Source: a virus
Taxonomy: Duplodnaviria; Heunggongvirae; Uroviricota; Caudoviricetes
IMG/VR virus record: IMGVR_UViG_2690316152_000014
Strand: one strand, 5' to 3'
DNA: 14,138 nucleotides
Made by a program: the position numbers and the translations under genes
Notes under the pieces: generated by a model
The model's database searches: none
What the model was told of the DNA's origin: nothing
What the model saw: only the letters and a program-made list of their open reading frames with translations
Shown: positions 1 to 10,700 of the stretch, piece after piece
Layout: each line of letters opens with the position of its first letter
Numbering within the stretch: position 1 is the first letter of the stretch

Positions 1-387
1 ATGTTCAATATCATGATTCGTAAATTTGGTGAGATGACTTTCGAGAAAGCTGGTGTTGCTCGTACCGAAGAAGAAGCAATGGCCTTAGTTCTGGTAGCAC
101 TGAGATCATCACCTGAGATTATCGACGCTGAATATGTAGCCGCAGAAGGTGAGATTAAAGAGATTAAAGCGGTGGCTAAGGAATTAGGTGTTAAAGGTTT
201 CCGTAAGCTGAGATTGAATCGTGAGACTTATGTAATCGGTAAACAGGGGCAATATATGGATGAGAATAGCATAATTGTTCTACTGAATAAGATTACCCGC
301 TACGGTTGGAAGATTGAGCAATATAAAACGTGTTTCGAATTATACGAAAAAGGTTTGCTGGATACTCTGACCATCGTTCGCGCTTAA
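1..387 (+). CDS. hypothetical protein (128 aa); may be 5'-partial because the ORF begins at the window edge
   Basis: Open frame from position 1 to a TAA stop at 385-387, followed by a hairpin terminator. No motif recognised. Confidence 0.5.
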   Translation: MFNIMIRKFGEMTFEKAGVARTEEEAMALVLVALRSSPEIIDAEYVAAEGEIKEIKAVAKELGVKGFRKLRLNRETYVIGKQGQYMDENSIIVLLNKITRYGWKIEQYKTCFELYEKGLLDTLTIVRA

Positions 388-400
388 TTAATTTCTAATT

Positions 401-427
401 TGGTGGGTGCAATTCCCACCGCTTTTT
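401..427 (+). terminator. Rho-independent terminator candidate
   Basis: Stem GGTGGG/CCCACC with a 7-nt loop, followed by GCTTTTT, directly after the stop of the first ORF. Confidence 0.5.
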
Positions 428-445
428 AAACTAGGAGAATCAAAC

Positions 446-526
446 ATGTTAGCTTTTATCTCATTCGTGGGAGGTAGTCTCACAACTATGATTAGTCTTT
501 CTTATATTGTCGTTAGTATGGGGTGA
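446..526 (+). CDS. small hydrophobic peptide (26 aa, MLAFISFVGGSLTTMISLSYIVVSMG), not in the ORF track
   Basis: ATG at 446 preceded by AGGAG (433-437) at about 8 nt spacing. Entirely hydrophobic, consistent with a single transmembrane helix. TGA stop at 524-526. Confidence 0.3.
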   Translation: MLAFISFVGGSLTTMISLSYIVVSMG

Positions 527-529
527 GCA

Positions 530-655
530 ATGAAACAATTTCATGATGGCATTTCATCTAAGACATTCAAGAAAGAATATAGCGGCTTGCGTATTGACTG
601 GATGGATTTGATTGGCGCGGTTGTGTTTGGTCTGATTATTAGCATCAACTTTTAA
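530..655 (+). CDS. small membrane peptide (41 aa, MKQFHDGISSKTFKKEYSGLRIDWMDLIGAVVFGLIISINF), not in the ORF track
   Basis: ATG at 530 lies 3 nt after the stop of the preceding mini-ORF and is preceded by GGGGTGAG. Polar N-terminus and hydrophobic C-terminal helix. TAA at 653-655. Confidence 0.3.
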   Translation: MKQFHDGISSKTFKKEYSGLRIDWMDLIGAVVFGLIISINF

Positions 656-671
656 CGATATAAATATATCG
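656..671. promoter_or_regulatory. dyad-symmetric element CGATATA-AA-TATATCG containing TATAAATA; candidate operator or -10 region
   Basis: Inverted repeat with 7-bp arms read directly from the sequence, about 30 bp upstream of the ATG at 701. Confidence 0.3.
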
Positions 672-700
672 TAATTCAAACAACAAGAGGAAATTCTACT

Positions 701-1114
701 ATGAAAAAGATTATCGCTGGTATCGTTCTTGCTATGGGTTTGGTTGGTACTGCTAATGCTAATACCTATTATGTGTGTAATTCCTACTTCGAACATAAAG
801 GAGATGATACACGCTACCTGAGTGATGGCGACCGTTATTATCATGCACCGTCTGGAAAATACCGTGGTTTTATCGGTGTAAAGGTTCGAGTGAATGATGA
901 TAATAGTCAATTTGCTTTCAACGATCCGGTATTTGATAGAACAATCAAAAGCCCGAAACTGAAAGAAGATAAGAACGAGAAAGAAGAATATTATGGTTCC
1001 GAAGATGGTAAGTCTTACATCAAATATCTGCATTCTATAGATGGCGCTCCTATATTTGATGTTAAAAAAGGTGATACATCTTATACCCTGATTAGCTGCC
1101 GTGAAATTCTTTAA
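701..1114 (+). CDS. secreted/periplasmic protein of unknown function, with a cleavable signal peptide
   Basis: N-terminus MKKIIAGIVLAMGLVGTANA has an n-h-c signal-peptide layout and an A-N-A signal peptidase I site, with no lipobox. RBS AAGAGGA upstream. Two Cys in the mature part (CNSY and ISCREIL). Confidence 0.7.
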   Translation: MKKIIAGIVLAMGLVGTANANTYYVCNSYFEHKGDDTRYLSDGDRYYHAPSGKYRGFIGVKVRVNDDNSQFAFNDPVFDRTIKSPKLKEDKNEKEEYYGSEDGKSYIKYLHSIDGAPIFDVKKGDTSYTLISCREIL

Positions 1115-1129
1115 TCTTTAATCACCTAG

Positions 1130-1166
1130 CCCCTATCGTTATAATACACGGTAGGGGCGTTTTTGT
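1130..1166 (+). terminator. Rho-independent terminator candidate (loop holds a TATAAT hexamer)
   Basis: Stem CCCCTATCG/CGGTAGGGG (one G-U pair), 10-nt loop TTATAATACA, then CGTTTTTGTTT. Confidence 0.5.
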
Positions 1167-1177
1167 TTGGAAATGGT

Positions 1178-2860
1178 ATGAAAACTAAACTGTATTCGTA
1201 TATTCGCTTCTCTTCCATGAAGCAAGCAGATGGTAGTTCATTTGAACGCCAGAAGAGAACAGCGAAAGAGATAGCCGCAAAATATGATCTTGAGCTAGTT
1301 ACTTCCTATCAAGATTTCGGTGTATCTGCATTCAAAGGAGCTAACAGTAAAACAGGTGCATTATCTCGTTTTCTGGATGAGATTGGTCGATCCGTTCCGG
1401 TTGGTAGCTGGCTGGTGGTGGAAAACTTAGACCGTATCTCCCGTCAATCTGTTATTGAAGCTCAAGAGCTATTCCTTTCAATCATCCGCAGGGGAATAAC
1501 AATTGTTACTGGTATGGATGGGAAGGTCTATAGCAAAGAATCGGTTAATGCTAATCCCATCGATTTACTATTGAGTGTAATGTTGTTTGCTCGTGCAAAT
1601 GAGGAAAGTCAGACTAAACGCAATCGCACTAACTCAAGCGCACTACTCAAGGTTAAAGCCCATCAGGAGAATCCACAAAATCCGGCAGTGGCAATCGAGG
1701 AAATTGGTCGCAATATATGGTGGGCTGATACTTCATCGGGTTATGTGCTTCCACATCCGGTGTATTTTCCTGTTATCAAGAAAATCGTTGAATTAAAACA
1801 GAATGGTTATTCTAATGGTCGGGTTCTTGATTATCTGAATGAAAGAATCACCCCGCCTAATTACACAACGAACAAAGATACCCCTAAGAAATGGGCGCGT
1901 TCTATGTTAGCCAGGATGTTCTCTAACCGCGCTTTGCTTGGTATCAAAGAGATAACCATTGAAGGTGTGACATATGAGTTAAAGGATTATTACCCACGAG
2001 TGATGGAAGATGCCGAGTTCTATCAACTCAAGAAGACTATAGGACTGAGGTCGTTTTCTTATCCCACTAAGTCTAGTCCTGTTATTACCCTGTTAAGTGG
2101 TGCTGGCTTGCTTCGATGTGGTCATTGTGGGGCAAGTATGGTTAAGAGAAGCGGAGCATCAAAAGAGAGATTAGCCCAATATCGTTATATGTGCGATGGC
2201 GCAGATAGCAGGAGGACTAATTGTGATCATCCAAATTGGGGCTTTCGTGGTGATCAACTGGATAAGGCTGTATTGCAATTGCTGGCTGATAAAATCTGGA
2301 TTGCTGAGGATAAGGCTAATCCGATCCCAGGTATGCAAGCCCAGATTGAAGACATTTCACGCAAGATTGATAACCTGATTAGTCTTTCTGCAATGACAGG
2401 AGCAACGAAGGAACTAGCCGATCAGATTACTACCCTGAATCATGAGCGTGAGACCATCTATAACCAGATTAAGGTAATAGAAGAGAACATGTATTCAGTT
2501 GATTCTCAAGGCTGGGAGAAGCTAGCACAATTTGATTTAGAGGATGTTTGCAGCGAGGAACGGTTAAAAGTTCGATTGAAGATTAAAGAAGCTGTTAAGT
2601 CTATAAATTGTTACAAGATTGATACCAATTATAATCATTTTTTAATGGAGTACATCGACGGGAAGACACAAAGGATAGTGATCGAGAGGTCACGCCGTAA
2701 CAGGAAAGGGAGAATTTTTGTAGACGTGAAGACTATCAATGATAGGCAGATTCTGGAGAGCAACGGGCTTGTTCTGCATCCATGTTTAGACATGCTGACA
2801 GATAAGAACTGGAAACCGGAGGAAGAAATACCAGGTCCATTACAGGAATTTGGAATTTAA
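1178..2860 (+). CDS. large serine recombinase (probable phage integrase)
   Basis: N-terminal resolvase-type catalytic motifs: YIRFSSMKQ (catalytic Ser), SFERQ, and LVVENLDRISR. C-terminal zinc-ribbon cysteines (LLRCGHCG ... YMCDG ... NCDH) followed by coiled-coil-like sequence. Start set to the ATG at 1178; the track's 1163 is a TTG. Confidence 0.88.
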   Translation: MKTKLYSYIRFSSMKQADGSSFERQKRTAKEIAAKYDLELVTSYQDFGVSAFKGANSKTGALSRFLDEIGRSVPVGSWLVVENLDRISRQSVIEAQELFLSIIRRGITIVTGMDGKVYSKESVNANPIDLLLSVMLFARANEESQTKRNRTNSSALLKVKAHQENPQNPAVAIEEIGRNIWWADTSSGYVLPHPVYFPVIKKIVELKQNGYSNGRVLDYLNERITPPNYTTNKDTPKKWARSMLARMFSNRALLGIKEITIEGVTYELKDYYPRVMEDAEFYQLKKTIGLRSFSYPTKSSPVITLLSGAGLLRCGHCGASMVKRSGASKERLAQYRYMCDGADSRRTNCDHPNWGFRGDQLDKAVLQLLADKIWIAEDKANPIPGMQAQIEDISRKIDNLISLSAMTGATKELADQITTLNHERETIYNQIKVIEENMYSVDSQGWEKLAQFDLEDVCSEERLKVRLKIKEAVKSINCYKIDTNYNHFLMEYIDGKTQRIVIERSRRNRKGRIFVDVKTINDRQILESNGLVLHPCLDMLTDKNWKPEEEIPGPLQEFGI

Positions 2861-2896
2861 GCGGCCTAAATCGCTGCATAACGAGATAAACGCTTT

Positions 2897-2917
2897 AAGG
2901 GGTACGTACCCCTTTTT
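2897..2917 (+). terminator. hairpin terminator / perfect 18-bp palindrome AAGGGGTACGTACCCCTT followed by T-run
   Basis: Perfect palindrome at 2897-2914 plus TTT, located 37 nt after the recombinase stop. Confidence 0.45.
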
Positions 2918-2929
2918 AATTTAATTGCG

Positions 2930-3925
2930 TTACGCGGCCTCTAAGGGGCTTAAATCAAGTTCTAGGTCTTCCGGTTCCAACTCGGCTAATGGCATTGAGT
3001 GCATCATAGCGAAATCACGTTCTATATCATCTTCGGTTATGTAGTCTTCTGGGTTGATTTCGAAATCAGCATCAAAATATATTGGTTCGGGCGAATTGTT
3101 ATAAATGTACTCCTGTATGAATTTTTTCACATCATCCATTTTGCTGATTGGTAAAGTTTCAGTATAACCACGAGACATTAATTTACGACTAATCCGCTTA
3201 CCTTTGATGTGTTTTTTGATGCCACTTTCTAAATCACCAGCTTTCCAGCCGCAATCAAACGTGTGTGAATATTCAAGGGATAATATTTCATCGGTGTATC
3301 TTTGAGTTTCATACATTCGACGTAGTGGATTTTTGCGCGTAGTTATACCAAATTTTAAAAATTTTTCTCCTACACGAAAAACATAAAAAATAACTGGTCG
3401 ATGTGTATCTTTGTTCATCAAAGCATGTTGTTTCCCGTTTGAAAGAGCAGTTATAGCGCCACGTATAAGAGGACAAGTTAAACTCCCCCGATTACGACTA
3501 CTAAACAAATCGGCTTTGTTGTATATTTTACCATGACAATTACATTTTAGTTTTAGATGGGTTGTTATTCCTCTGTATGGTTCGGCTAGCCCTAAAACAT
3601 CCCAGCCAATCTTATTAAAGAAATTGGTTGAAACTTGTATGTACTCATGTTCTGTATACATGCAAGGTTTCTTATATGTTGGGTGATGGTCTTTTCCTGT
3701 AAACTTACCCATTAAGACACGTTGTAATAAAGGAGTTTTAACTTTATCGCCAACTTTTATATAAACTTTTGTTCGCTGGAATGGCTTATGGATAGGTAGA
3801 ACGAATCCCCCATAAATCCATCCATTAGATTTACATTGGTCAACAACCATTGATTCATATTCAGATGGGCTTTTAGCCGTTGATTTTTTGATGAAAGGAA
3901 TATCTTTAGCAAAAACGGTTTTCAT
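2930..3925 (-). CDS. Cys-rich GIY-YIG-like (T5orf172-like) putative homing endonuclease, paralog A
   Basis: ATG at 3925 with GAGGA RBS. Segment VIFYVFRVGEKFLKFGITT resembles a GIY-x(10)-YIG signature. Cys/His clusters upstream (LKLKCNCHG, LTCPL). Acidic C-terminal tail. Clearly paralogous to the 5053-6090 protein (shared WIYGGFVLP/LIYHGFVMP, KFGIT/KYGIT, GYTET). Confidence 0.55.
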   Translation of the reverse strand: MKTVFAKDIPFIKKSTAKSPSEYESMVVDQCKSNGWIYGGFVLPIHKPFQRTKVYIKVGDKVKTPLLQRVLMGKFTGKDHHPTYKKPCMYTEHEYIQVSTNFFNKIGWDVLGLAEPYRGITTHLKLKCNCHGKIYNKADLFSSRNRGSLTCPLIRGAITALSNGKQHALMNKDTHRPVIFYVFRVGEKFLKFGITTRKNPLRRMYETQRYTDEILSLEYSHTFDCGWKAGDLESGIKKHIKGKRISRKLMSRGYTETLPISKMDDVKKFIQEYIYNNSPEPIYFDADFEINPEDYITEDDIERDFAMMHSMPLAELEPEDLELDLSPLEAA

Positions 3926-3996
3926 AATAGCGAATCCTCATAAATTAAATTCACTATTATTTATTAGTATTTTTCTTGATAATAAAGATTGTTATT

Positions 3997-4668
3997 ATGT
4001 GTGATATTAAAATTAGCTTCATCAATTATAGCCATGTGAAAATTGATTATTCTCCTTCCATTGCAATGGAATTGAGAGATTATTTTAGCTTTGAAGTGGA
4101 AGGAGCCAGATTTAGTCCCAGATACAAATATTCGGGCTGGGATGGTCGTATTAGACTTTTTACCTATGAAAATTTGATGCCTATTGGCTTAGTTCGAATG
4201 GTTAGCGTGTTTTCAAAAAATATGGGTTATAGTGTTTTGATAGACCCTAGACTTTTGGAGCGGGAAAATGTCGATGAAAAGGAAATCGAAAAATGGTGCA
4301 ATGTCCTAGAATTATATTCTGGTGCTAACAGAGTTACCCCGCACTGGTATCAATCAAAAGCAGTCTTTGAAGGTATTCATCATAAACGTAGAATGTTAGT
4401 TCTTCCTACGTCCGCTGGCAAATCTGCTATCGCTTGTATGTTATCTCGTTGGTACTTAGAGAACTACGAAGGCAAAGTGTTGATCATTGTCCCGACGACC
4501 TCGCTTGTTCTCCAGATGCGGGATGATTTTGTTGATTATCGCCAGTTTCCTTATGAAGCTATTCATACTATCATGAGCGGTACTAGTAAGCATGTAGGGG
4601 ATCGCCTGATTGTTGTCAGTACATGGCAATCCGCTTGTAAACAGCCTCGTGAATGGTTTAAACAATAA
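3997..4668 (+). CDS. uvsW: UvsW-like SF2 DNA helicase, N-terminal fragment (223 aa), stops just before motif II; likely a gene remnant
   Basis: Collinear with the T4 UvsW N-terminus as recalled from memory: N-terminal domain, PHWYQ, Walker A LPTSAGKS, YLENYEGKVLIIVPTT, and WQS..KQPREWF. The ORF stops immediately before the expected DECH box. Start set to ATG 3997 (the track's 3976 is TTG). Confidence 0.7.
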   Translation: MCDIKISFINYSHVKIDYSPSIAMELRDYFSFEVEGARFSPRYKYSGWDGRIRLFTYENLMPIGLVRMVSVFSKNMGYSVLIDPRLLERENVDEKEIEKWCNVLELYSGANRVTPHWYQSKAVFEGIHHKRRMLVLPTSAGKSAIACMLSRWYLENYEGKVLIIVPTTSLVLQMRDDFVDYRQFPYEAIHTIMSGTSKHVGDRLIVVSTWQSACKQPREWFKQ

Positions 4669-5052: not shown

Positions 5053-6090
5053 TTACCCCCTATATGTAATTTTATAGTTGTTGGAGTTTTTACAAAAATC
5101 CATTGCCATTTTTCTAATCTGCGCTTCTTTGGTTATGTCACATGTTTCTGTATATCCGTCTGGGATTAGTTCTTTTGGTGCAGCGTGACTTCCTATGTTA
5201 TGTTTTACGGAATATTCTAGGTCATTGGCAACTTTTCCGTCACCGAAAGTTATATACCACAATAACTTGTGAGATAATCCTGACTCTCTTGATTGTTGTG
5301 TGATTCTCTTTTGTGGGTTTAGGTGATTTGTTATTCCATATTTGATATAATCGCCTACTTGCTGGACATAGAAAACACCTGGTTTACTTTTGTTATACCC
5401 ACTCTTAGAACAGCACGGACAACCATCGTTTTCGTAAACCAAACCATACGCAACAATAGTATCTGATATATGGCCTTTTTCACACTTTAGTTTTAGTTTT
5501 GACATAGCCAAAATTGGGGATTTAGGTCGTTTTATTAATTTGAGTCTCTTTTCTTTGCACCCGTCTTCAATTAATCCCAACCATTCGTCGTCTGTGTGCT
5601 TTCTCTTATTAATTCCTCTCTTAATTGACCCACAATGACGGCACCCAGCATCATTGTTTATGATTCTTGTGATTATCGTTTCGTATGTGGTGTTACAACA
5701 AGTGCATTTATATGATGCCTTTGTATCAAGCCCTTTATATTCTTCCAACAAACCAACTAAAACCATCTCTTTACGTTCTAATACATTGCTTGCTTTGGTG
5801 AGAATGGTTTCTTCGTCTCTATTATTTTTCTTTGGTAGTTTTAAAGAATCTCTATAACATTCAATACAAGCACCTTGTTTCTTAAGGGATTTGAATACTA
5901 TCGTTCTTGATGTGTTGTGTTTTTTGCAAGTTACATAAACGTGTGTATATTGACCTTTCCACGGCATGACGAAGCCATGATAAATCAAACCTAATTCACC
6001 ACATCGTTTAATTGCAATTGTTTCATAGTCGTGCGGAGTTTTTCTTTTGAATCCGGTGTAATCGATATATTCAGCAAATAAAACTTCCAT
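5053..6090 (-). CDS. Cys-rich GIY-YIG-like (T5orf172-like) putative homing endonuclease, paralog B
   Basis: Three Cys-rich modules (KRCG..VTCKKH..CIEC; KCTCC..GCRHCG; LKCEKGH..GCPCC), then GVFYVQQVGDYIKYGIT (GIY-YIG-like) and DGYTET. GGGGGA SD upstream of ATG 6090. Confidence 0.55.
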   Translation of the reverse strand: MEVLFAEYIDYTGFKRKTPHDYETIAIKRCGELGLIYHGFVMPWKGQYTHVYVTCKKHNTSRTIVFKSLKKQGACIECYRDSLKLPKKNNRDEETILTKASNVLERKEMVLVGLLEEYKGLDTKASYKCTCCNTTYETIITRIINNDAGCRHCGSIKRGINKRKHTDDEWLGLIEDGCKEKRLKLIKRPKSPILAMSKLKLKCEKGHISDTIVAYGLVYENDGCPCCSKSGYNKSKPGVFYVQQVGDYIKYGITNHLNPQKRITQQSRESGLSHKLLWYITFGDGKVANDLEYSVKHNIGSHAAPKELIPDGYTETCDITKEAQIRKMAMDFCKNSNNYKITYRG

Positions 6091-7787: not shown

Positions 7788-10700
7788 TTAACGAATAGAA
7801 ATACCAGAAGTGGCTTTTTTAGCGACCATCACAACAACATCGGTCGCACTACCCGATCTACGGGTTGAAACAGGCCATGCTTTAAACTCTAAAGTCACGC
7901 TACCCTTACCCGCTGGCATGTCTATAACGCTACTGTATGCAATAGGTATTGGTCCGCCTGATTCTAATGCTTTCAGTAAAGTACCATTTTTACGCACTTC
8001 TAAACGCATACGGCTATACCCGGTTCTGCCCGGATTATCACCAGTTCCTGCAATATCGTATTCAGCGCCAGCAACAATAATTGGCGGAATGATGATTTGA
8101 CGGTCAAATTTATGGTCATCATTGATCGTTACGGTAACAGCACCATCAGGAACACCAGCATCACCTAAAGTAGCAGCACCACGAGGAAACGCCTTAGATA
8201 CAGTCTTAACAAAATCACCGCGTACCTGAGTAGCTTCTAACATACCCTTAATAACACAGGATTCGTTAATCGTGACGTTGTTCAGAGTACCGGAATCAGC
8301 CGTGATATTACCTTTGATTTTGGCATTCATGAACGTAGCGGACCCGTTCTTGTTGATATGCCATCCGGTAGATCCGTTCCAGTTGGAAGACTGGATATAG
8401 TTACCGATTTTAGCGTTATCAATTGCACCGTTTACAATCTTGGCGTTAGTGATCGCCCCGTCCTGAATCTTCGCGCTATTAATTGCAGCATTGCCGATTT
8501 TAGCCGTGGTGATTGCCGCATCAGTAATCTGGGCTGTGCCGATTGAGGCATTACGGATCATGGACCAGTCCATATACACCTTGTTTCCTTCGACACCAAA
8601 CGGAACAACACCCGCCGCGCCATCCTGTGGAGCTACCACCAGCTTATCAGCCGTAAAGATGATTTTAGTCGGTTGTGCCGGATCGTTAGTTGCGCTCATG
8701 TGAATACCAGCCACACGACCATCTGCATTAACTGCAAGATTGTATTTGCTGTTAATGGTTCCCTTCAAAGCATCGATCTTAACGTCCGCTTCTTGGTTAA
8801 CACCAGCAATCTTGCCATCCATTTCTACCCGAACTTGATCAATCTTACTTGCGCTTGCTGCCTCACTGGTTGCAATTGCTTGTTTCAGGGTAGTAGCAGA
8901 TGCGCTAACTTCTTTGGTGATATCACCTTTCAATTCAGCTTTAACCTGATCAATCTTAGTGGAGCTAGCTTGATCACCAGAGACAATCAGACTCTTAAGA
9001 GTATCGGCTGAGGCTTGGACCGTCTGTCCTGTTTCAGTAGTGATTTGCTTGTGCATTGCATCAATTTTAGCATCGGCATTTTCGCCAGCTTGAGCAATAG
9101 CATCAGCGATAGTTTCATCTAAGCGATCTTGTAAACCAATCAGGTCTTCCAGTGCTTCTTTGTCCTGATCTTCCCAACTAATCGAAGATTTCATAGACAT
9201 GAAATACGGTTCAGACCAGACAGCATCATCCATGCCGAAAATATCGTAGTGAGCACCACGGATATAATAATCACCATCAGCCAAATCAAAGGAAGTATGG
9301 CTAACACTATTCGTGCTTACTGCCCTTGCATCGGAGAAAGTGTTATCGGTTGCATACTGGATGATTGACCCTGCATAGTCATGTTCTACGTCATCTGTCC
9401 AGCTAACAAACGCAGTATTAAAGCCACCACGCGCACTAAAACCTTTCATCGGCTTATGCTGTGGGTTGATAGCCACTAAACGCGCTGGGGCGCTCTCTGA
9501 GTTGTTATATCCTTTAACCGATACTTCCACCGTCAGTTGACGCGAAAGGCCGTTAAACTGGTTCATATCAAGCGTATAAGTCCATGATTCAGGATCGCGG
9601 GTACGGTACTGAATAGACTTACCAGCCTTGTTAGTAACCTTGATAATGTATGCTTCAAACAGGTCACTAAACTTGTTAGCTTCGCCGTTGATCATCACAT
9701 CTAAGCCTTGCTGGTTATCCCATTCGATAATCAGATCATTACCTTCGAAAGTGCCAGCCGTGCTACCCTGATTTTTGATTCGAATAGTCGGAGTCGGCAA
9801 TTCATAGGTAACAGTAGGATTCTGGTTAATCAGTTCTACCCAATCGGATCGCGCGATGATACCGAAAGCACAAATACGGTAATCGTAAGAACGATCTTTA
9901 GCCAGTGCATTGACATTGAAGATTTGCTGTGAAGTCTGACCCAGCTTAATCCAGTTAGGTGATCCGCTTACACGATAATCAATCTGGAAACCATAACGGT
10001 TAAAATCTTCCGGTGCATCCCATGTCAAAGTAACGTTTTTACCGTAAATCGTCTCGCCAGTTGCCTTAATTCTGAAATTAGTAGGCTTCTGTACTGTCAT
10101 TGAATCCGGTAAACCACTTGGTCTATTGTCTGGAGTTGCCGCATAGTTCAGGTCAGTATAAACCTGAGAATTATATTCTGTAGCGGTGATAGTCATCATC
10201 CCAGCAATACCAGAATCAATCGAGCGATCAATTGCGGTAATACGCCATAAAGAATTATTCAGTTTTAATTCATCATAGGTTACGCTAATAACATCCCATA
10301 CTTCGGCAGTGAATGCGTCAGTAGTCATAAAGCTGATAACCTGAGTGATACGAGATTTATTTCGTTCAATGCTCGCTAGTTTATCAATCTGGTCTTTAGA
10401 CTTAACGAAACGATATTCTACATCCTTAGCAATAATTCGACCATCTGCGCGAACAGTAGCATCGTTTTCAGCATCAGCCGGATAACGTAGCATTTGCTCC
10501 GAATAGTCGATTGATGGTTCTTGATATACCGCGTTAATGGTATTGAAATAACCGTTAGTACCACCAGTTTTAAGGGATACTTTACCCATCATAATATTGT
10601 CTTCATTGAAGGTATGCTTAACAATATCAGGAGCATCCAGTTTCAGAGTAATTCTTCCGAAGGATTCGAACATTACCCCGCCGAAAGTCTGCATTAATCC

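What the first reader, a model, noticed from the sequence alone, without database searches (positions are those of the whole stretch)
656..1114. Secreted two-cysteine protein under a TATAAATA-containing palindrome, next to the recombinase
A 137-aa protein with a cleavable signal peptide and two Cys lies directly upstream of the recombinase and is preceded by the dyad CGATATA-AA-TATATCG, which embeds TATAAATA (the T4 late-promoter consensus, and also -10-like). A periplasmic protein at this position in a temperate element is a candidate lysogenic-conversion or superinfection-exclusion factor.
Basis: partly seen in the sequence, partly recalled or inferred. Interest (0 to 1): 0.4.

Follow-up and report, generated by a model that had tools for sequence, protein, structure and literature searches.

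The report
Swappable secreted-protein gene beside prophage integrase
A real but function-unknown gene for a small protein exported to the space between the cell's two membranes sits in an exchangeable cargo slot at the integrase end of an E. coli/Salmonella prophage; it is an ordinary kind of prophage accessory gene, and the "T4 late promoter" reading of its upstream palindrome does not hold.

Summary
ORF 701-1114 encodes 137 aa with a textbook Sec signal peptide (cut ANA|N after residue 20) and two family-invariant Cys. The dyad CGATATA-AA-TATATCG (656-671) with TATAAATA lies 30 nt upstream, and a large serine recombinase starts at 1178.

The element is temperate. Relatives are prophages of about 35-38 kb inserted into codB, hicB or ycdX in about 1% of complete E. 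coli genomes.

The gene fills a polymorphic cargo slot:
- An invariant upstream element, 5'UTR and signal peptide on one side, and a strong terminator on the other, are shared by at least three alternative cargos.
- The swap point is exactly the signal-peptidase site.

The protein belongs to an orphan family under purifying selection (dN/dS 0.15-0.3). The model is a small hydrophilic beta-barrel. It is not a lipoprotein and not a virion protein.

The dyad and the octamer are each at chance frequency. What counts is conservation: 34 nt are identical between E. coli and Salmonella while the flanks are about 60% identical. There is no sign of T4-type late transcription, and the sigma-70 fit is poor.

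The function (lysogen envelope protection or superinfection exclusion) stays inferred. The slot allele does not track the tail-tip receptor domain, which argues against a receptor-matched blocker.

The parts
401..431 (+). Intrinsic terminator-like hairpin (401-421) plus T-run after the 128-aa gene. It marks the upstream edge of the transcription unit that holds the finding.
   Evidence: 7-bp stem, 5 GC pairs, CTTTTT tail; conserved in the E. coli relatives aligned, diverged in the Salmonella locus L002
446..526 (+). Mini-ORF 1: a 26-aa hydrophobic peptide (MLAFISFVGGSLTTMISLSYIVVSMG) preceded by AGGAG.
   Evidence: read from the sequence; hydrophobicity; a ~25-27-aa hydrophobic ORF with a YIVV motif is kept at this place in the relatives whose sequence was read
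530..655 (+). Mini-ORF 2: a 41-aa protein with a C-terminal hydrophobic helix. Its TAA stop (653-655) abuts the dyad.
   Evidence: dN/dS 0.11-0.35 against relatives; the changes in Salmonella are mostly synonymous
655..672 (.). Dyad ACGATATA-AA-TATATCGT. TATAAATA lies at 659-666.
   Evidence: single copy in a whole 38-kb related prophage
657..690 (+). Conserved non-coding element GATATAAATATATCGTAATTCAAACAACAAGAGG. It contains most of the dyad, an A/C-rich leader and the Shine-Dalgarno AAGAGG (685-690). It is the candidate promoter/operator plus 5'UTR shared by all cargo alleles.
   Evidence: 34/34 identical to Salmonella L002 against 58-63% in the flanks; 22-nt core invariant in 9 loci; exact 22-mer in 24 IMG/VR prophage contigs, each one copy near the stored end of its locus
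701..760 (+). Signal-peptide codons 1-20 (MKKIIAGIVLAMGLVGTANA). This is the conserved 5' arm of the cargo cassette.
   Evidence: 29 E. coli genomes match only nt 1-59 (or 1-70) of the gene; the same leader is fused to an unrelated 81-aa allele
761..1114 (+). Mature domain (117 aa, 13.6 kDa, pI 5.9, GRAVY -0.96; Cys codons at 776-778 and 1097-1099) plus stop codon. This is the variable cargo, allele A.
1129..1168 (+). Strong intrinsic terminator (11-bp stem, -21.6 kcal/mol, z = -4.5, GTTTTTGTTT tail). It is the conserved 3' arm of the cassette and separates the gene from the integrase. The loop carries TATAAT (1140-1145).
1178..2860 (+). Large serine recombinase, the prophage integrase.
   Evidence: Resolvase, Recombinase, Zn_ribbon_recom; phrog_95 integrase, 3e-54; prophage junctions

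Best explanation
Shown:
- The gene is the cargo of an accessory ('moron'-type) slot at the integrase-proximal end of a temperate, siphovirus-like prophage family of E. coli and Salmonella. These prophages insert into codB, hicB or ycdX through a large serine recombinase.
- The slot has fixed arms. The 5' arm is the conserved 34-nt element containing the dyad, the SD and a 20-codon Sec signal peptide. The 3' arm is a strong intrinsic terminator just before int.
- Between the arms, different phages carry different mature domains: this 117-aa domain, an unrelated 61-aa domain, a TM-coiled-coil gene plus that 61-aa domain, or an endonuclease-like ORF. The junction lies exactly at the signal-peptidase site.
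- The protein belongs to an orphan family under purifying selection.

Inferred:
- It is exported by Sec and cut after Ala20.
- It folds in the periplasm into a small soluble up-and-down beta-barrel, closed by a C26-C133 disulfide between the first and last strands.
- It is made in the lysogen from the conserved element, which would be a weak or regulated promoter whose -10-like TATAAAT is overlapped by the dyad as a possible operator. The terminator would keep int silent.
- It acts as a binding or blocking protein in the envelope that protects the lysogen from something crossing the periplasm. The most likely target is the entry apparatus of a superinfecting phage, by analogy with P1 Sim or T4 Sp. 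A hydrolase, colicin or effector is also possible.

The exact target is unknown.
For: - Temperate context and end-of-prophage position.
- Signal peptide and absence of a lipobox. The AF2 model is unstructured for residues 1-18 and the barrel starts at residue 22.
- Both Cys are invariant. The strand limits 22-33 and 126-135 allow a register in which residue 26 faces residue 133 (inference).
- Purifying selection: dN/dS is 0.15-0.31 where dS is not saturated.
- Same synteny and same upstream element for homologues of only 41-43% identity.
- Cassette architecture. dS of the mature part (1.1) is far higher than dS of the signal peptide (0.07) and of the upstream genes (0.2-0.3) for L005.
- Constraint on the upstream element.
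- Strong terminator.
- The gene is intact in a 5.5-kb prophage remnant.
- The alleles reassort freely with integrase type and tail-tip type, as expected for dispensable cargo.
Against: - No promoter meeting sigma-70 criteria is found upstream on the + strand, so expression in the lysogen is not shown.
- No homology to any defence, exclusion or inhibitor family. Pfam, NCBIfam, PADLOC and PHROGs give nothing beyond signal-peptide-level hits. There is no tblastn hit in phages.
- The slot allele does not co-vary with the receptor-binding end of the tail tip. A Cor/Llp-style blocker of the phage's own receptor is therefore unlikely.
- Two genomes carry two family members, both with a non-A allele, so allele B or C at least does not obviously exclude kin.
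Confidence: 0.4

Rival explanations
1. Lytic-cycle helper. The protein is made during phage growth, read through from upstream across attP in the circular genome, and acts in the periplasm on lysis timing (an antiholin or spanin-type partner). Alternatively it blocks the receptor or debris so that progeny are not lost, as T5 Llp does.
For: - No clear autonomous sigma-70 promoter.
- In the circular phage form the LprI-like gene, the 90-aa and 128-aa genes, the mini-ORFs, the slot and int all point the same way across attP.
- Two small membrane peptides are co-oriented just upstream.
- Allele C begins with an N-terminal TM plus coiled-coil protein, a layout shared with a 92-aa ORF next to the tail genes.
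- The window's lysis cassette is not clearly complete: only the M15 endolysin is identified.
Against: - The gene is bracketed by terminators and lies far from the endolysin, on the opposite strand.
- It is replaced by unrelated cargos in otherwise near-identical phages, so it cannot be an essential lysis component.
- It has no lipobox or TM segment, as spanins or holins would.
- It is kept intact in a remnant that has lost the structural genes.
Confidence: 0.2
2. Host-fitness or virulence cargo unrelated to phage-phage conflict. It would be a periplasmic inhibitor or ligand binder of the calycin type, for example against lysozyme, proteases or interbacterial effectors, that benefits the lysogen in the gut.
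For: - Fold hits include the periplasmic lysozyme inhibitors PliC, PhiA and ACP, the lipocalin-like YceI proteins and a T6SS immunity protein.
- The other prophage end carries a gene annotated as LprI-family lysozyme inhibitor.
- Carriers come mostly from animal and human gut isolates.
- There is no linkage to the receptor-binding domain.
Against: - Pfam gives no hit at all at E <= 1, so none to MliC/PliC.
- The similarities are those of any 8-stranded barrel.
- The family is confined to this prophage lineage: 8 hits among 1.84 billion representatives and none in 185,579 species genomes.
Confidence: 0.2
3. Miniature outer-membrane beta-barrel of the Lom/Ail/OmpX kind, inserted in the outer membrane to change surface properties.
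Against: - The mature chain is only 117 aa, whereas OmpX, among the smallest well-characterised 8-stranded OMPs, has about 148 (from memory).
- Most predicted strands are 3-5 residues long.
- GRAVY is -0.96 and 32% of residues are charged.
- The C-terminus ...SCREIL lacks the terminal aromatic beta-signal.
- A conserved Cys pair is atypical for OMPs.
Confidence: 0.05
4. The dyad/TATAAATA is a T4-type late promoter (gp55-dependent, no -35), so the gene is a late gene.
For: - Exact TATAAATA lies 35 nt before the ATG, with no -35.
- Four further TATAAATA copies in the related prophage lie in intergenic DNA in promoter orientation upstream of genes, also without a -35.
- The element has exchanged DNA with T4-like phages: its uvsW piece is 78-85% identical to the Krischvirus gene.
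Against: - The octamer count is at chance level: 1 against 1.5 expected in the window, and 6 against 3.0 in L010 with 8 of 100 shuffles reaching 6.
- No copy lies before a structural gene.
- No gp55-, gp33- or gp45-like protein was found among the early-region ORFs or window ORFs scanned with PHROGs.
- Conservation extends asymmetrically 3' of the octamer.
Confidence: 0.03

Closest known systems
Phage 'morons' (Hendrix/Juhala definition; e.g. lambda bor and lom, HK97 gp15)
   Same: It is an extra gene present in some but not all closely related phages. It is followed by its own factor-independent terminator, sits outside the essential modules, encodes an envelope-targeted product and is under purifying selection.
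   Different: A convincing sigma-70 promoter, part of the definition, is not found. Unusually, the alternative cargos share one leader (upstream element, UTR and signal peptide) and are swapped at the signal-peptidase site.
P1 Sim and T4 Sp (periplasmic superinfection-exclusion proteins)
   Same: They are small phage-encoded proteins acting in the periplasm; P1 Sim is a signal-peptide-processed protein that blocks a step after adsorption. This rests on established knowledge recalled from memory, not tested here.
   Different: There is no sequence similarity (no tblastn hit in 50,697 phage records), and no exclusion phenotype is known for this family.
Cor (phi80, N15, T1) and Llp (T5) receptor-blocking lipoproteins
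   Same: They are prophage- or phage-encoded envelope proteins that protect against superinfection.
   Different: Those are lipoproteins matched to the phage's own receptor. Here there is no lipobox, and the allele does not co-vary with the receptor-binding end of the tail tip.
PliC/MliC-family periplasmic lysozyme inhibitors (including Brucella PhiA and Neisseria ACP)
   Different: There is no Pfam hit at E <= 1. The similarity is no better than to unrelated barrels such as Cap15 and OmpW.
Large-serine-integrase temperate phages with accessory genes next to int/attP (the P22 gtr and Sf6 oac placement rule)
   Same: The accessory gene lies between the attachment site and int, at the prophage end.
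   Different: The prophage lineage has no isolated relative in the phage collection, and its cargo is an orphan.

Membership tests
Sec/SPase I secreted protein | Positively charged n-region, 10-15-residue hydrophobic h-region, small residues at -3/-1, no Cys at +1 | tested here: met
   MKK / IIAGIVLAMGLVG (mean KD 2.6) / TANA|N. M1, K2, K3, A18 and A20 are invariant in all 8 family members; position 19 is N or K and position 21 is N, K or D. The same leader serves a second, unrelated mature domain. SignalP was not available.
Bacterial lipoprotein (Cor/Llp-type exclusion proteins) | Lipobox [LVI][ASTVI][GAS]C at the end of the signal peptide | tested here: not met
   The first Cys is residue 26, in the context YYVC, six residues after the A-x-A site.
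Moron (autonomous accessory transcription unit in a prophage) | Variable presence among close relatives | tested here: met
   Alleles A, B and C and an endonuclease-like ORF occupy the same slot. In 5,426 E. coli genomes, 26 carry the full-length gene and 29 carry the leader only.
Moron (autonomous accessory transcription unit in a prophage) | Own factor-independent terminator | tested here: met
   Hairpin at 1129-1158 plus T-run, -21.6 kcal/mol, z = -4.5. It is conserved in alleles A, B and C.
Moron (autonomous accessory transcription unit in a prophage) | Own sigma-70 promoter active in the lysogen | tested here: inconclusive
   The conserved element carries TATAAA (5/6, no -7 T). The best -35 is 3/6. 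A TGn extended -10 is present only in relatives with T at the position of C656. Activity cannot be tested here.
T4-type late promoter | TATAAATA at -10 | tested here: met
   659-666, but the count is at chance frequency.
T4-type late promoter | Phage encodes gp55-type sigma (with gp33 and gp45), and the motif precedes late (structural) genes | tested here: not met
   No such PHROG hit among the window ORFs and L010 early-region ORFs scanned. No TATAAATA lies in the 3.4-29.5 kb structural region of L010.
PliC/MliC lysozyme inhibitors | Match to the family profile or its conserved loop motifs | tested here: not met
8-stranded outer-membrane barrels (OmpX/Ail/Lom) | At least about 150 aa mature chain, roughly 10-residue amphipathic strands, C-terminal aromatic beta-signal | tested here: not met
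   117 aa, short strands, C-terminus SCREIL, GRAVY -0.96.
ExbD/TolR | Significant profile match | tested here: not met
   PHROGs gives only hits of E 0.012-0.064 to unknown-function families, mostly confined to the N-terminal signal peptide. No tblastn hit in phages. The gene lies between attL and int, on the strand opposite the tail genes.

The most novel reading that the evidence does not exclude
The slot may be a dedicated 'periplasmic effector socket'. One conserved control element, leader and signal peptide would be reused to export interchangeable mature domains, recombined precisely at the signal-peptidase site. This would give the prophage lineage a rapidly exchangeable repertoire of envelope-defence proteins. 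Allele A in particular might work as a periplasmic decoy: its most conserved hairpin (VKVRVNDDNSQFAFNDPVFDRTI) resembles the first beta-hairpin of E. coli ExbD (12 of 23 identical). If so, it would interfere with TonB-ExbD energy transduction and so with TonB-dependent phages and colicins.
Probability: 0.08. Interest if true: 0.65.

Novelty: new member of a known kind. Interest (0 to 1): 0.3.

Why it matters
Accessory genes at prophage ends are where exclusion, defence and virulence functions are usually found. This one defines a small orphan family of exported proteins, confined to an un-isolated prophage lineage present in about 1% of complete E. coli genomes, including the O55:H7 strain DEC5A and several ETEC-named strains. 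The clean cassette structure gives an easy experimental handle: the same leader and terminator flank different mature domains. The alleles can be swapped or deleted in an otherwise identical lysogen and tested for phage, colicin or lysozyme phenotypes. If the function is ordinary, the main value is a corrected annotation. The gene is a real exported-protein gene and the upstream element is conserved, but the element is not a T4 late promoter.

Tried and rejected
1. T4 late promoter. Rejected on chance frequency, on the absence of the motif before structural genes, and on the absence of a gp55-like sigma.
2. The dyad as a repeated operator. Rejected as a main immunity operator: it is a single copy in the 38-kb prophage, even allowing 2-3 mismatches, and the window holds only one other, poor match with 3 mismatches.
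3. The dyad as an RNA hairpin. It is weak, and the fold of 640-730 is not better than shuffles (z = -0.6).
4. Known RNA family in 1-3000: none.
5. The giant protein P0011 (3,037 aa, E = 3e-6) as a remote homologue. Rejected: hhalign probability is 2.6% and its repeats are an unrelated Ig-like module.
6. ExbD similarity. Kept only as a lead, because it is not significant.
7. Sigma-E-type and IHF-type motif readings of the region, checked by eye. The apparent half-matches fall at synonymous sites of mini-ORF 2 or have the wrong spacing.
8. The promoter-like site at 479-508 from the scan is not conserved in relatives.
9. Searches that found nothing: 50,697 phage records by megablast and tblastn; GTDB species genomes by motif and by protein; literature by protein accession and by prophage keywords.
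10. The afdb50 fold library was unavailable.
11. The antisense ORF 554..1033 was rejected as the gene.

Full report
**1. What is in the sequence**

The + strand ORF 701-1114 encodes 137 aa.
- Its N-terminus is MKK, then a 13-residue hydrophobic core (mean Kyte-Doolittle 2.6), then TANA|N. This is a standard Sec/signal-peptidase I leader with A-x-A at -3/-1.
- There is no lipobox. The first Cys is residue 26, in the context YYVC.
- The mature chain is 117 aa, 13.6 kDa, pI 5.9 and very hydrophilic (GRAVY -0.96, 38 charged residues). It has no hydrophobic segment.
- The two Cys (26 and 133) are invariant in all eight family members, down to 41% identity.
- The overlapping antisense ORF 554..1033 is interrupted by stops in most of the divergent relatives, so the + strand gene is the real one.

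The dyad CGATATA-AA-TATATCG is at 656-671. In this window it has 8-bp arms (655-672). It starts right after the TAA of a 41-codon ORF. TATAAATA is at 659-666.

Fourteen bases after the stop codon there is a strong intrinsic terminator at 1129-1158 (-21.6 kcal/mol, z = -4.5) with a T-run. The large serine recombinase starts at 1178.

**2. Chance or not**

- TATAAATA occurs once, against 1.5 expected.
- Perfect 7-bp-arm dyads with spacer 0-4 occur at about 10 distinct sites (14 counted with nested ones), against 5.6 +/- 2.7 in simulated sequence.
- Taken alone, therefore, neither feature is remarkable. What is remarkable is conservation.
- GATATAAATATATCGTAATTCA is invariant in nine aligned loci. 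The core GATATAAATATATCGTAATT is also unchanged upstream of homologues only 41-43% identical in protein.
- Window 657-690 is 34/34 identical to a Salmonella relative whose flanking coding DNA is only 58-63% identical.
- Conservation is not symmetric around the dyad. It runs on 3' through an A/C-rich leader to the Shine-Dalgarno AAGAGG.
- The outermost dyad base (C656) is C/T polymorphic without a compensating change.
- The constrained object is thus a 34-nt upstream element that contains the dyad, not demonstrably the dyad as such.

**3. Context: a temperate element**

- The module 128-aa gene, two mini-ORFs, this gene and int lies at one end of prophages of about 35-38 kb. These are integrated inside codB (strain 06-00048), hicB (E275a, L3Cip3, DEC5A O55:H7 and others) or ycdX (PEC41, EC24; the same neighbourhood in Salmonella). 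The split target gene is found on both sides where this was checked.
- In 06-00048 the host junction is about 45 nt upstream of window position 1.
- 58 of 5,426 complete E. coli genomes carry the module.
- The rest of the window carries an M15 endolysin, homing-endonuclease-like ORFs, a lambda-J-like tail tip and the end of a tape-measure gene, mostly on the opposite strand.
- No isolated phage in 50,697 records resembles the element beyond short pieces.

**4. The gene sits in an exchangeable slot**

Downstream of the invariant element, different members of the lineage carry one of the following:
- (A) this 135-139-aa protein;
- (B) an unrelated 81-aa protein with the same signal peptide (MKKIIAGVVLALGLVGAANA|EQYVQGD...), also with two Cys;
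- (C) a 113-aa TM-plus-coiled-coil protein followed by B;
- in one contig, a 348-aa endonuclease-like ORF.

Further evidence for the slot:
- In E. coli genomes, 26 carry full-length A. Another 29 match only the first 59 nt (one of them 70 nt), that is, up to codon 20.
- A nucleotide alignment shows identity up to the Ala(-1) codon and none after it.
- At the 3' side, homology resumes at the terminator stem.
- Consistently, for relative L005 the synonymous divergence of the mature part (dS 1.1) far exceeds that of the signal peptide (0.07) and the upstream genes (0.2-0.3).
- Alleles A, B and C all occur with the same integrase cluster (>= 90% identity) and with 98-100% identical tail-tip C-termini. 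The cargo therefore reassorts freely.

**5. The protein**

- It is an orphan. Nothing is found in Pfam, NCBIfam or PADLOC. PHROGs gives only weak hits (E 0.012-0.064), mostly to the signal peptide. There is no tblastn hit in phages.
- An exhaustive profile search of 1.84 billion representatives gives only 8 hits. None is found in 185,579 species genomes.
- One apparent remote hit, a 3,037-aa repeat protein, is spurious.
- dN/dS is 0.15-0.31, so the protein is functional.
- AlphaFold2 (pLDDT 72.5, pTM 0.67) gives an unstructured leader and an all-beta domain of about ten strands.
- The limits of the first and last strands (22-33 and 126-135) allow a register that places C26 opposite C133. This suggests a disulfide closing the barrel (inference).
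- Size, short strands, hydrophilicity and the C-terminus argue against an outer-membrane barrel.
- A profile search of PDB sequences returns only E. coli ExbD, at non-significant E = 0.26-0.5. It aligns the family's most conserved hairpin with ExbD residues 63-85 (12 of 23 identical). I keep this as a lead only.

**6. The upstream element as a promoter**

- The consensus scan finds no + strand sigma-70 promoter there.
- TATAAA matches 5/6 but lacks the -7 T. The best -35 is 3/6.
- Relatives with T in place of C656 have a TGn extended -10.
- As RNA the dyad is a weak hairpin.
- It is a single copy in a complete prophage, so it is not the main immunity operator.

The T4 late-promoter reading fails:
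- the octamer is at chance frequency;
- in the complete prophage L010 none of its six copies precedes a structural gene (five lie in the 30.6-33.1 kb non-structural region);
- PHROGs finds no gp55-like protein among the ORFs tested.

The most economical reading is a weak or regulated promoter plus shared 5'UTR, with the dyad overlapping the -10-like box as a possible repressor site. This is inferred, not shown.

**7. How it most likely works**

Shown: it is an exported small protein encoded by dispensable, exchangeable cargo at the int/att end of a temperate phage. It is insulated from int by a strong terminator and is under purifying selection.

Inferred: it is expressed in the lysogen and acts in the periplasm as a binding or blocking protein that protects the cell. 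Superinfection exclusion at the DNA-entry step (as with P1 Sim or T4 Sp) is the leading guess.

Against a receptor-matched blocker (Cor/Llp-like): there is no lipobox and no co-variation with the receptor-binding domain.

Rivals are a lytic-cycle periplasmic role, a host-fitness inhibitor or ligand binder, and a mini outer-membrane barrel. They are listed with their tests.

**8. Verdict**

This is a new orphan member of a familiar kind, the prophage moron. Its one notable twist is a leader-sharing cassette whose swap point is the signal-peptidase site. Interest is modest.

Noticed in passing
window 446-526 and 530-655: Two conserved mini-ORFs (26 aa, fully hydrophobic; 41 aa with a C-terminal hydrophobic helix) lie in the same terminator-bounded unit as the secreted protein. 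Mini-ORF 2 shows mostly synonymous change against Salmonella (dN/dS 0.11-0.35). Their function is unknown; they could be small membrane regulators, exclusion peptides or type-I-toxin-like peptides. They are not annotated in the RefSeq records viewed.
   Followed up: partly
window 3976-4668 (nt match 4003-4666): A UvsW-like helicase ORF of only 230 aa (relatives have about 500 aa) is 78-85% identical at the DNA level to uvsW of strictly lytic T4-like Krischvirus phages. This suggests gene flow between T-even-like and temperate phages. Here the gene looks truncated.
   Followed up: partly
window 2930-3925 (-) and 5053-6090 (-); L016 slot; L006 5937-7112; L007 7658-8239: There are two endonuclease-like ORFs (phrog_681/HNH) in the window, and GIY-YIG nucleases at the equivalent places in relatives. 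In one contig a 348-aa endonuclease-like ORF sits directly behind the conserved element, in place of the secreted protein. The region appears to be colonised by homing-endonuclease-like genes.
   Followed up: partly
window 1140-1145: A perfect TATAAT sits in the loop of the terminator hairpin 33 nt before the integrase ATG. It is conserved in all the E. coli-type loci compared, across alleles A, B and C. A promoter for int may overlap the terminator (best -35 only 3/6).
   Followed up: no
L003/L009 (codB), L004/L010/L006/L008/L062 (hicB), L005/L007 (ycdX): Closely related large serine integrases insert the prophage inside three different host genes and split them. The ycdX-type and most hicB-type enzymes fall in one cluster of at least 90% identity; a second cluster is about 87% identical and the codB type is 73-77% identical. 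This could be useful for studying how target choice is encoded.
   Followed up: partly
L008 2522-8464: A 5.5-kb remnant lies between the hicB halves in strain EC7072022BGR. It keeps the 139-aa secreted-protein gene intact, a slightly shortened recombinase and the LprI-like gene, but has lost all structural genes.
   Followed up: partly
window 7788-8360 (C-terminal ~190 aa of the 1,259-aa tail tip, - strand): The C-terminal domain of the J-like tail tip is about 60% identical to that of phage 434, mEp460 and lambda h434, while the rest of the protein has no close phage relative. This hints at a porin-type (OmpC-like) receptor. At least four C-terminal types circulate in the lineage.
   Followed up: partly
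L010 30688-33125: Five of the six TATAAATA copies in the complete prophage lie in this non-structural region. Four of them sit in intergenic DNA in promoter orientation upstream of genes (two of these before the same 60-aa gene). None of the six has a recognisable -35. A 1.4-kb stretch (31445-32831) has no ORF above 70 aa. The early region is almost entirely orphan, with no recognisable repressor or replication gene.
   Followed up: partly
L010 37061-37855; L008 7123-7902: The opposite prophage end carries a gene annotated as 'lysozyme inhibitor LprI family protein' (phrog_14799). In the circular phage it would lie just across attP from the module studied here, in the same orientation.
   Followed up: no
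window residues 60-82 of the protein (nt 878-946): The family's most conserved block, VKVRVNDDNSQFAFNDPVFDRTI, matches E. coli ExbD residues 63-85 (VYLSVKADNSMFIGNDPVTDETM) at 12 of 23 positions. This is the only PDB sequence hit, at non-significant E = 0.26-0.5.
   Followed up: partly
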